A stretch of 32,000 nt of DNA from positions 2,700,001 to 2,732,000 of the forward strand of contig NC_010628.1 in the NCBI RefSeq assembly GCF_000020025.1, given 5' to 3'. Position numbers and translations under genes: made by a program. Of the stretch, positions 8,890-9,024 are shown piece by piece (the first letter of the stretch is position 1; the number at the start of each line of letters is the position of its first letter). Source of the stretch: Nostoc punctiforme PCC 73102 (lineage in GTDB: Bacteria > Cyanobacteriota > Cyanobacteriia > Cyanobacteriales > Nostocaceae). The notes beneath the pieces are model-generated. The model was not told where the DNA came from. It made no database searches and was given only the letters and a program-made list of their open reading frames with translations.

Positions 8890-9024
8890 ATGCCTACAAA
8901 CACAGTCAAAACAGTGGATGTTGTAGCAGTACCATTCTTTGCGCGTTTCTTGGAAGAGCAAGCTACTGAAGGAACAGAGGTTCCTTGGACTTACAAGTTT
9001 CCTTCAGATTTGGAAGATAGATAA
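8890..9024 (+). CDS. mdnA: Microviridin-class (graspetide) precursor peptide, 44 aa
   Basis: I translated it by hand: MPTNTVKTVDVVAVPFFARFLEEQATEGTEVPWTYKFPSDLEDR, followed by TAA. It has the PFFARFL leader motif and a T-x-K-x-P-S-D-x-E-D core at the C-terminus. It lies directly upstream of two ATP-grasp genes. It is absent from the ORF track because of its size. Confidence 0.85.
   Translation: MPTNTVKTVDVVAVPFFARFLEEQATEGTEVPWTYKFPSDLEDR

What the first reader, a model, noticed from the sequence alone, without database searches (positions are those of the whole stretch)
8890..9024. Unannotated 44-aa microviridin-class precursor peptide with a non-canonical core
The ~850-nt apparently empty gap in the ORF track contains ATG(8890)...TAA(9022-9024), encoding MPTNTVKTVDVVAVPFFARFLEEQATEGTEVPWTYKFPSDLEDR. 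PFFARFL (aa 15-21) is the leader helix recognised by microviridin ATP-grasp ligases. The C-terminus carries the T-x-K-x-P-S-D-x-(E/D)-(E/D) cage motif. By analogy, the predicted cross-links are Thr34-Asp40 and Ser39-Glu42 lactones and a Lys36-Asp43 lactam. It departs from the classical KYPSDWEE(Y/W) core in four ways: Phe replaces Tyr, Leu replaces Trp, Asp is the presumed lactam acceptor, and a basic C-terminal Arg is present. Tyr35 occupies the position that sets protease selectivity in characterised microviridins, which hints at chymotrypsin-type targets. This small gene defines the function of the neighbouring 2 kb and is easy to miss.
Basis: partly seen in the sequence, partly recalled or inferred. 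Interest (0 to 1): 0.85.

Follow-up and report, generated by a model that had tools for sequence, protein, structure and literature searches.

The report
Known microviridin N precursor gene (mvdE)

Summary
ATG 8890 to TAA 9024 (+) encodes the stated 44-aa peptide. It passes the curated cut-offs of Pfam Inhibitor_I10 and NCBIfam NF033738 (microviridin/marinostatin RiPP). It lies directly upstream of an MvdC and an MvdD ATP-grasp ligase, both scoring as equivalogs.

It is not new. The exact peptide is RefSeq WP_083782369.1 of Nostoc punctiforme, and the adjacent ligase is ACC80790.1 (Npun_F2189, PCC 73102). The 44-aa sequence is printed in PMC7660261. Its products, microviridins N3-N9, were isolated from this strain (Dehm 2019, seen only through citing papers). 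Tricyclisation and leader removal by NosP were reconstituted in 2026 (PMC13039773). That paper reports m/z 1284.392; this ORF with GA added and three waters lost computes to 1284.388.

The "non-canonical" core is the usual one in Nostocales. TYKFPSDLEDK/R and close variants dominate 79 related genome loci, and all six cross-link residues are invariant.

Side observations:
- A LamG-patatin lipase and a 134-aa membrane protein follow the ligases in 46 of 62 related loci.
- 9-bp TCTTAACTN repeats abutting the promoter are conserved.
- A terminator-like hairpin lies between mvdE and mvdC and recurs in related loci.

Verdict: interpretation supported, already known, low interest.

The parts
8750..8820 (+). 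Seven copies of a 9-bp-period direct repeat, TCTTAACTN. Four to five copies lie at 8750-8792 and two at 8803-8820, and the last two abut the -35 hexamer. This is a candidate regulator-binding array of the mvdE promoter.
   Evidence: The repeats were found. The paired pattern TCTTAACTNTCTTAAC occurs 4 times in the window, all here, against 0.13 expected. The same arrangement, TCTTAACTGTCTTAACTG followed by CCTTG[AC]A, recurs upstream of the first mvdE gene in most related loci. Its function is inferred, not shown.
8824..8852 (+). Sigma-70-type promoter-like site: -35 TTGAAA, 17-nt spacer, extended -10 TG-n-TATATT. The predicted transcript start is near 8859.
   Evidence: scores it 10 of 12 with TG present. 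The -35 and TGATATAT elements are conserved in related loci. No transcription start was mapped here.
8879..8882 (+). Shine-Dalgarno-like AGGA, 7 nt upstream of the ATG.
   Evidence: Read directly from the sequence. Orthologues mostly carry AAGGA at the same place.
8890..9024 (+). mvdE (mdnA), a class I microviridin precursor of 44 aa. The leader is aa 1-24, with PFFARFL at 8932-8952 and the LEEQ cleavage motif at aa 21-24. Microviridin N9 begins at Ala25 (8962). The cage core TYKFPSDLEDR spans 8989-9021, and the stop codon is 9022-9024.
   Evidence: Supported. The sequence is printed in PMC7660261. The products N3-N9 and NosP cleavage after LEEQ are described in PMC13039773.
9169..9218 (+). 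Terminator-like hairpin with 15-bp arms at 9169-9183 and 9200-9214 (-15.3 kcal/mol), followed by TTTT at 9215-9218. It lies between mvdE and mvdC and is a candidate partial terminator or attenuator that would set the precursor-to-enzyme ratio.
   Evidence: Found by my own scan; 50 of 71 related loci have a hairpin of -10 kcal/mol or stronger abutting a T-run in the same intergenic region, and in roughly 40 Nostoc loci its sequence is nearly identical to this one. The simple scan missed it because the loop is 16 nt. Its function is inferred.
9313..10305 (+). mvdC/mdnB (Npun_F2189), the ATP-grasp ligase that forms the Lys-Asp lactam.
   Evidence: TIGR04185 MvdC equivalog, 527.6 bits against a 425 cut-off, covering the full profile. 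The sequence is identical to ACC80790.1 / WP_012408791.1.
10380..11357 (+). mvdD/mdnC (Npun_F2190), the ATP-grasp ligase that forms the two lactones.
   Evidence: TIGR04184 MvdD equivalog, 566.6 bits against a 475 cut-off. Gene callers use the ATG at 10380, giving 325 aa.
11489..13585 (+). Protein of 698 aa (Npun_F2191) with an N-terminal LamG/concanavalin-like domain and a C-terminal patatin-like phospholipase domain. The oxyanion motif GGGIRG, the catalytic GTSSG and the catalytic DGG are intact. It is a conserved accessory gene of Nostocales mvd operons, and its role is unknown.
   Evidence: Pfam and NCBIfam matches. PADLOC phospholipase effector model, 197.6 bits. Catalytic motifs are invariant in 7 homologues down to 59% identity. 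Synteny is shown.
13714..14118 (+). Glycine-rich predicted membrane protein of 134 aa (Npun_F2192). It always travels with the patatin gene.
   Evidence: No family match. Synteny is shown.
14430..16448 (+). ABC transporter with fused permease and ATPase (Npun_F2193), the MdnE/MvdA-type presumed exporter.
   Evidence: Family matches. Conserved downstream in related loci. PMC7660261 reports 61% identity to MdnE.

Best explanation
The ORF 8890-9024 is mvdE, the class I precursor of microviridins N3-N9 of Nostoc punctiforme PCC 73102.

The mechanism has the following steps, with shown and inferred steps kept apart.
1. The 44-aa peptide is translated.
2. The PFFARFL helix in its leader docks onto and activates the two ATP-grasp ligases encoded immediately downstream.
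3. MvdD (10380-11357) forms the Thr34-Asp40 and Ser39-Glu42 side-chain esters.
4. MvdC (9313-10305) forms the Lys36-Asp43 amide. Together these give a tricyclic cage with a mass change of -54 Da.
5. The M1 metalloprotease NosP, which the NosP paper places 0.8 Mb from the microviridin gene cluster, cuts after LEEQ (aa 21-24) and releases the 20-residue N9 (ATEGTEVPWTYKFPSDLEDR).
6. NosP then slowly trims the N-terminus to give N8 down to N3.
7. No GNAT acetyltransferase is present, so the N-terminus stays free.
8. The cage presents Tyr35 as the P1 residue to serine proteases, which should favour chymotrypsin-type targets.

Shown elsewhere by experiment: the products, the tricyclisation and NosP processing. 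Shown here: the identity of the sequence, family membership, ligase identity, purifying selection and synteny. Inferred by homology: the exact Ser39-Glu42 and Lys36-Asp43 pairings, the protease preference, and export by the downstream ABC transporter.
For: The translation is. The peptide exceeds the curated cut-offs of Pfam PF12559 and NCBIfam NF033738. MvdC and MvdD score as equivalogs above cut-off over their full profile length.

The exact peptide is WP_083782369.1 [Nostoc punctiforme], found on an 8,234,322-bp contig, and MvdC equals ACC80790.1. Logan assemblies that carry the identical peptide show the same gene order as the window.

PMC7660261 prints this exact 44-aa sequence as the precursor lying before Npun_F2189 and links it to microviridins N3-N9. 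PMC7823629 and PMC13039773 describe N3-N9 from PCC 73102, the Thr4-Asp10 ester, the missing acetyltransferase, cleavage after LEEQ and the tricyclic precursor at m/z 1284.392. My computed [M+4H]4+ for GA plus this ORF minus 3 H2O is 1284.388.

Sixty-seven homologous protein clusters and 79 genome loci keep the small ORF. The residues P15, F16, F17, R19, F20, L21, T34, K36, P38, S39, D40, E42 and D43 are invariant. The six cross-link residues carry 10 synonymous and 0 non-synonymous changes. RNA-seq studies report that the cluster is transcribed and regulated.
Against: - I could not read the primary structure paper (Dehm et al. 2019), which is not held. The N3-N9 structures are therefore taken from papers that cite it.
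- The in-vitro tricyclisation in PMC13039773 used the Planktothrix ligases, not the two encoded in this window.
- The Lys36-Asp43 and Ser39-Glu42 pairings were not stated in any text I could read. They follow from homology and from the loss of three waters.
- No protease-inhibition data for N3-N9 were seen, so the chymotrypsin preference is only a prediction.
- PMC7660261 reports that mvdC and mvdD can be expressed discordantly, which leaves room for partly cyclised species in some conditions.
Confidence: 0.96

Rival explanations
1. The ORF is a chance open frame in an AT-rich intergenic region and is not expressed as a peptide.
For: It is short (44 codons). Mechanical ORF lists contain many frames of similar size.
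Against: - Two curated profile models are passed.
- The motifs are unique in 32 kb.
- The CDS is far better conserved than its flanks, and the substitution pattern shows purifying selection.
- The peptide products have been isolated, according to the literature.
Confidence: 0.005
2. The precursor is real, but its main role is intracellular and tied to the co-transcribed LamG-patatin lipase and TM134 pair. For example, the peptide might regulate or be handled by the lipase, linking it to lipid-droplet or membrane-lipid turnover, rather than acting as a secreted protease inhibitor.
For: - Of 62 related loci with enough downstream DNA, 46 have the order mvdE-mvdC-mvdD-Pat-TM134.
- Three loci have mvdE-Pat-TM134 with no ligases.
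- The window's core type is present in 47 of 49 loci that carry Pat-TM134, against 2 of 8 loci with neither (Fisher p = 2e-5, uncorrected for phylogeny or sampling).
- Npun_F2189-2192 on a plasmid abolishes lipid droplets, and the ABC exporter was not co-induced (PMC7660261).
Against: - The Pat-TM134 pair also occurs on its own. A clade with 63-67% identity in metagenome contigs has no microviridin-like ORF within 6 kb, so the pair does not need a microviridin.
- Loss of lipid droplets is explained most simply by over-expressing a lipase.
- Microviridins as a class are well-documented protease inhibitors.
- The association statistics come from loci chosen for similarity to the query.
Confidence: 0.1
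3. The mature product is not the classical tricyclic cage but a mono- or bicyclic (marinostatin-like) peptide, because the core is atypical (Asp acceptor, Leu in place of Trp).
For: MvdC was induced more than 10-fold and MvdD was not in one strain, and the authors suggested an amide-only form.
Against: - Loss of three waters was measured on this precursor.
- All six donor and acceptor residues are invariant across relatives.
- Both ligases are intact equivalogs.
- N3-N9 are described as tricyclic.
Confidence: 0.03

Closest known systems
MvdE, the precursor of microviridins N3-N9, Nostoc punctiforme PCC 73102 (Dehm et al. 2019; RefSeq WP_083782369.1)
   Same: The 44-aa sequence is identical (printed in PMC7660261). 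The flanking genes are the same, Npun_F2189-F2193. The computed mass of the tricyclic form matches the published value.
   Different: Nothing. This is the same gene.
Microviridin L precursor MdnA of Microcystis aeruginosa NIES-843, and the classical microviridins B, J and K (core KYPSDWEE/D-Y/W)
   Same: The PFFARFL leader, the TxKxPSDx(E)(D/E) cage, the two ATP-grasp ligases and the ABC transporter are shared. Position 5 sets protease selectivity, and the F5Y variant of microviridin L shifts activity towards chymotrypsin. From my own memory, not checked here, microviridin L ends in ...WEDY, so an Asp lactam acceptor would not be unprecedented.
   Different: - Phe replaces Tyr at position 7, Leu replaces Trp at position 11, and the tail is a basic Arg instead of an aromatic residue.
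- The leader is of the LEEQ type (Nostoc/Planktothrix group), not the proline-rich Microcystis type.
- There is no GNAT N-acetyltransferase, so the products have free, ragged N-termini.
- The operon carries extra LamG-patatin and TM134 genes.
Marinostatin (the same NCBIfam family, NF033738)
   Same: It is a ribosomal serine-protease inhibitor with omega-ester cross-links and matches the same profile.
   Different: From established knowledge, not tested here, marinostatin has two ester rings and no Lys lactam and comes from a marine proteobacterium. The peptide here has the full three-ring donor and acceptor set and cyanobacterial MvdC and MvdD ligases.

Membership tests
Microviridin (group 1 graspetide) precursor, MdnA/MvdE | Leader peptide carrying the PFFARFL recognition motif | tested here: met
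   PFFARFL lies at aa 15-21 and is invariant in the alignment of 17 diverse relatives.
Microviridin (group 1 graspetide) precursor, MdnA/MvdE | C-terminal core TxKxPSDx(E/D)(D/E) supplying Thr and Ser hydroxyls, the Lys amine and three carboxylates | tested here: met
   TYKFPSDLED lies at aa 34-43. T34, K36, P38, S39, D40, E42 and D43 are invariant and carry no non-synonymous change in 27 orthologues.
Microviridin (group 1 graspetide) precursor, MdnA/MvdE | Scores above the curated thresholds of the family profiles | tested here: met
   PF12559 gives 38.3 bits against 21. NF033738 gives 33.2 bits against 26.
Microviridin biosynthetic gene cluster (mdn/mvd) | Two dedicated ATP-grasp ligases adjacent to the precursor gene: MvdD/MdnC for the lactones and MvdC/MdnB for the lactam | tested here: met
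   TIGR04185 gives 527.6 bits against 425 for 9313-10305. TIGR04184 gives 566.6 bits against 475 for 10380-11357.
Microviridin biosynthetic gene cluster (mdn/mvd) | Tricyclic product formed by loss of three waters | not testable with these tools
   The literature reports tricyclic GA-MvdE at m/z 1284.392 [M+4H]4+ (PMC13039773). My calculation from this ORF gives 1284.388. The native N3-N9 were isolated.
Microviridin biosynthetic gene cluster (mdn/mvd) | GNAT N-acetyltransferase (MdnD/MvdB). This is typical of the cluster but not obligatory. | tested here: not met
   No ORF between 8402 and 16448 matches an acetyltransferase family. [quoted passage not shown] Its absence explains the non-acetylated, ragged N-termini and does not exclude membership.
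Microviridin biosynthetic gene cluster (mdn/mvd) | ABC transporter (MdnE/MvdA) | tested here: met
   The gene at 14430-16448 matches ABC_membrane_2 and ABC_tran. It is conserved downstream in related loci. PMC7660261 reports 61% identity to MdnE.
Class I microviridin precursor (single core) | One leader fused to one core, with no double-glycine motif or repeated cores | tested here: met
   The peptide has a single core, and there is a single precursor gene in the 32-kb window. No GG motif precedes the core.
Microviridin (function) | Inhibition of serine proteases | not testable with these tools
   No assay data for N3-N9 were seen. Tyr at position 5 predicts a chymotrypsin preference, by analogy with the F5Y variant of microviridin L.

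The most novel reading that the evidence does not exclude
The 'N-type' microviridin (T[Y/F]K[F/Y]PSD-L-ED-K/R) would form a functional unit with the conserved LamG-patatin lipase and TM134 pair, expressed from a promoter controlled through the conserved 9-bp TCTTAACTN repeats.

On this reading the peptide controls, or is acted on by, a phospholipase/lipase, which would link a RiPP protease-inhibitor scaffold to lipid-droplet or membrane-lipid turnover in Nostocales. It rests on synteny in 49 of 62 related loci, including three loci with precursor, lipase and TM134 but no ligases, and on the published loss of lipid droplets when Npun_F2189-2192 are over-expressed.

It is weakened by stand-alone Pat-TM134 pairs that have no microviridin gene nearby.
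Probability: 0.1. Interest if true: 0.6.

Novelty: already known. Interest (0 to 1): 0.1.

Why it matters
The flagged gene does define the function of the neighbouring 2 kb. It is a good example of a short RiPP precursor that older annotations miss: the original GenBank record appears to lack it, and RefSeq has it. Since the gene, its products (microviridins N3-N9), its ligases and its leader peptidase are already published, confirming it adds no new biology.

The residual value lies in three comparative observations that I did not find discussed in the literature I searched. No paper in the library holds both 'microviridin' and 'patatin'.
- A LamG-patatin lipase and a TM134 gene pair are a conserved part of Nostocales microviridin operons.
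- The N-type core co-occurs with that pair.
- A 9-bp direct-repeat array at the promoter is strongly conserved and could lead to the unknown regulator behind the cell-density control of this cluster.

Tried and rejected
- The primary paper, Dehm et al. 2019, is not held, so I relied on three papers that cite it.
- A search of the NosP paper's supplement for the core sequence and the cross-link residues found nothing usable, because the figures are images.
- An Rfam scan of 8380-9340 gave only a meaningless scaRNA hit at E 0.33.
- The simple terminator scan found none. A custom scan that allows a longer loop found the conserved hairpin.
- A six-frame search for a second precursor gene in the window found none.
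- The apparent 66-aa N-terminally extended versions called in some assemblies are not real here. The window has an in-frame TAA at 8872-8874, so that conservation reflects the promoter and 5'UTR.
- I tested whether the patatin-TM134 pair is always tied to a microviridin gene. It is not: metagenome loci with 63-67% identical pairs lack any precursor-like ORF, and no other conserved small ORF appears upstream of them.
- The PADLOC and NCBIfam matches of the lipase to CBASS-type phospholipase effectors fall below the equivalog cut-off, and no cyclase or other defence genes accompany it. I therefore do not call it a defence system.

Full report
**1. Observation.**
The window holds an ATG at 8890 and a TAA at 9022-9024 on the + strand. 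The ORF sits in the 851-nt stretch between the stop of an ABC-transporter gene (8401) and the mechanical TTG ORF start at 9253. The true start of the next gene is ATG 9313. An in-frame TAA at 8872-8874 makes ATG 8890 the only possible start, and an AGGA lies 7 nt upstream of it.

**2. Is it more than chance?**
- The peptide passes the curated cut-offs of Pfam PF12559 Inhibitor_I10 (38.3 bits against 21, E 1.5e-9) and NCBIfam NF033738, 'microviridin/marinostatin family tricyclic proteinase inhibitor' (33.2 bits against 26).
- A six-frame regular-expression scan of all 32 kb finds the leader motif and the cage motif only here.
- The two following genes are ATP-grasp ligases that score as equivalogs over the full profile. 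9313-10305 matches MvdC (TIGR04185, 527.6 bits against 425). 10380-11357 matches MvdD (TIGR04184, 566.6 bits against 475).
- The gene order, precursor then lactam ligase then lactone ligase, is that of Microcystis mdnA-B-C.

**3. Identity.**
An exact look-up shows that the 44-aa sequence is RefSeq WP_083782369.1 [Nostoc punctiforme], seen on an 8,234,322-bp contig. The MvdC protein is ACC80790.1 / WP_012408791.1 of strain PCC 73102. Assemblies that carry the identical peptide have the same gene order as the window. The window is therefore the nostopeptolide/microviridin region of N. punctiforme PCC 73102.

**4. Already published.**
- PMC7660261 prints this exact 44-aa sequence as the precursor preceding Npun_F2189. 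It names Npun_F2190 as MvdD, F2191 as a putative lipase, F2192 as a transmembrane protein and F2193 as an MdnE-like ABC transporter. It refers to the microviridins N3-N9 derived from the peptide.
- PMC7823629 summarises N3-N9 as non-acetylated microviridins from PCC 73102 whose N-terminal overhang varies from three to nine residues.
- PMC13039773 (2026) describes the Thr4-Asp10 ester and the absence of an acetyltransferase. It describes the LEEQ motif after which the M1 protease NosP, encoded 0.8 Mb away, cuts to give N9, and the slow aminopeptidase trimming to N3. It also reports in-vitro formation of the tricyclic precursor with [M+4H]4+ at 1284.392.
- As an independent check, I computed the mass of GA plus this ORF minus three waters and obtained [M+4H]4+ = 1284.388. 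The published substrate is therefore this ORF, and it loses three waters.
- RNA-seq studies show that the cluster is transcribed and responds to cell density and to nostoclide and nostovalerolactone.
- The primary structure paper (Dehm 2019) is not held.

**5. The 'non-canonical' core.**
The four listed differences from KYPSDWEE(Y/W) are real, but they typify a large Nostocales clade.
- All 15 listed members of the 39-member 90%-identity cluster carry TYK[F/Y]PSDLED[K/R/Q].
- All 67 homologous clusters keep E-D.
- In 79 genome loci found with the precursor profile there are 106 distinct precursors. Position 7 is Phe in 47 and Tyr in 56. Position 11 is Leu in 54 and Trp in 37. Positions 12-13 are E-D in 81 and E-E in 25. 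The tail is K or R in 65. The commonest core is TYKFPSDLEDK, in 28 loci.
- This sample is biased towards relatives of the query, and one of the two scan patterns required E-D.

Selection acts on the peptide. Across 27 orthologues with an ungapped 44-codon gene, the PFFARFL codons show 12 synonymous and 2 non-synonymous changes. The six cross-link residues show 10 synonymous and 0 non-synonymous changes. The variable sites are F37Y and R44K/Q. CDS identity is 89-97%, against 41-91% for the flanks.

**6. Mechanism.**
The leader helix recruits the ligases. MvdD makes the Thr34-Asp40 and Ser39-Glu42 esters, and MvdC makes the Lys36-Asp43 amide. NosP cuts after Gln24 and trims the N-terminus, and with no GNAT present the N-terminus stays free. 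Tyr35 occupies position 5, the P1 residue in the microviridin J-trypsin structure. The Ser39-Glu42 and Lys36-Asp43 pairings are inferred by homology.

**7. Surroundings.**
- *Upstream genes.* The window begins with the end of an NRPS carrying a thioesterase domain. It is followed by a WelO5-like dioxygenase, a zinc alcohol dehydrogenase, a pyrroline-5-carboxylate reductase and an ABC transporter. I recognise this from memory as the 3' end of the nostopeptolide cluster, including the methylproline genes.
- *Downstream genes.* After mvdD come a 698-aa LamG + patatin protein with intact GGGIRG, GTSSG and DGG motifs, a 134-aa glycine-rich membrane protein with no family match, and a second ABC transporter that is 66% identical to the upstream one.
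- *Synteny.* Among 62 related loci with at least 5.5 kb downstream, the counts are as follows.

| Gene order | Loci |
|---|---|
| mvdE-mvdC-mvdD-Pat-TM134 | 46 |
| TM134 present, no adjacent Pat | 5 |
| Neither Pat nor TM134 | 8 |
| mvdE-Pat-TM134, no ligases | 3 |

- The three ligase-free loci lie in genomes that carry ligase loci elsewhere.
- *Core type.* The window's core type is present in 47 of 49 loci with Pat-TM134 and in 2 of 8 loci with neither. In multi-precursor operons it is the first gene, followed by classical KYPSDWEE(Y/W) genes. Fisher's test gives p = 2e-5, uncorrected for phylogeny or sampling.
- *Limit on the association.* A metagenome scan with the lipase profile found a 63-67% identical clade of Pat-TM134 pairs with no microviridin-like ORF within 6 kb. 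The pair is therefore an autonomous module and not strictly dependent on microviridin. No paper in the library holds both 'microviridin' and 'patatin'.

**8. Regulatory anatomy.**
- Seven 9-bp-period repeats, TCTTAACTN, span 8750-8820, and the last two abut a -35 TTGAAA. A 17-nt spacer follows, then an extended -10, TG-n-TATATT, at 8847-8852.
- The paired repeat is unique in the window, with 4 matches against 0.13 expected.
- The block TCTTAACTGTCTTAACTG-CCTTG[A/C]A...TGATATAT is conserved upstream of the first mvdE gene in most related loci, including distant ones. Some stand-alone lipase loci carry it too.
- Between mvdE and mvdC, a 15-bp-stem hairpin (9169-9214, -15.3 kcal/mol) is followed by TTTT. 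It is conserved in sequence in roughly 40 Nostoc loci, and 50 of 71 loci have a comparable hairpin. This fits a partial terminator that sets the precursor-to-enzyme ratio, which is an inference.
- Rfam finds nothing in the region.

**9. Verdict.**
The feature is already known in sequence, product, enzymes and leader protease. The interest of the finding as stated is low. The most novel reading not excluded is a functional coupling of the N-type microviridin with the LamG-patatin and TM134 module, to which I give a probability of about 0.1.

Noticed in passing
window 11489-13585 and 13714-14118; loci L011-L089 and L090-L116: A LamG + patatin-like phospholipase (698 aa, catalytic motifs intact) and a 134-aa glycine-rich membrane protein follow mvdD in 46 of 62 related loci.

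Three loci (L057, L062, L072) have precursor-lipase-TM134 with no ligases. The window's core type co-occurs with the pair, in 47 of 49 loci against 2 of 8 loci with neither.

The pair also exists on its own, without any microviridin gene, as a 63-67% identical clade in metagenome contigs. No paper in the library pairs 'microviridin' with 'patatin'.
   Followed up: partly
window 8750-8852: Seven 9-bp-period direct repeats, TCTTAACTN, run into the -35 of the mvdE promoter. The pair TCTTAACTGTCTTAACTG plus CCTTG[A/C]A plus TGATATAT is conserved upstream of mvdE across Nostocales and appears upstream of some stand-alone lipase genes (L096, L098, L102, L114, L115). It is unique in this window. It is probably the binding site of an unidentified regulator.
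   Followed up: partly
window 9169-9218: A conserved terminator-like hairpin followed by TTTT lies about 95 nt upstream of mvdC, in the mvdE-mvdC spacer. The 5' arm overlaps a GCGATCGC (HIP1) palindrome. It may be a read-through terminator that sets the precursor-to-ligase ratio.
   Followed up: partly
window 6410-8401 and 14430-16448: Two paralogous ABC transporters of the ABC_membrane_2 type, 66% identical, bracket the microviridin genes. The upstream one ends the NRPS (nostopeptolide-like) cluster and the downstream one is the MdnE-like gene. In several related loci the same bracketing recurs.
   Followed up: partly
window 2-6307: This stretch holds the 3' end of an NRPS with a thioesterase domain. 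It is followed by a WelO5-like Fe/2OG dioxygenase (PF22814, 32.6 bits against 27), a zinc alcohol dehydrogenase and a pyrroline-5-carboxylate reductase. From memory, this looks like the nostopeptolide cluster with its methylproline (leucine hydroxylase, NosE, NosF) genes. That assignment was not checked against the literature here.
   Followed up: no
window 8824-8889; proteins P0031-P0054: Several public gene calls extend the precursor to 66 aa from an upstream TTG or ATG (for example LKIHLINDIFLVEKSIYFQGKS...). In this window that frame has a TAA at 8872-8874, so the apparent conservation of the extension reflects the conserved promoter and 5'UTR DNA, not coding sequence.
   Followed up: yes
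window 22574-23092 and 26692-27210; 24392-25391: Two 172-aa membrane proteins are clearly paralogous over most of their length. Between them, a histidine-kinase-like reading frame is split into three overlapping ORFs (24392-24709, 24767-25153, 25089-25391), which may be a frameshifted pseudogene.
   Followed up: no
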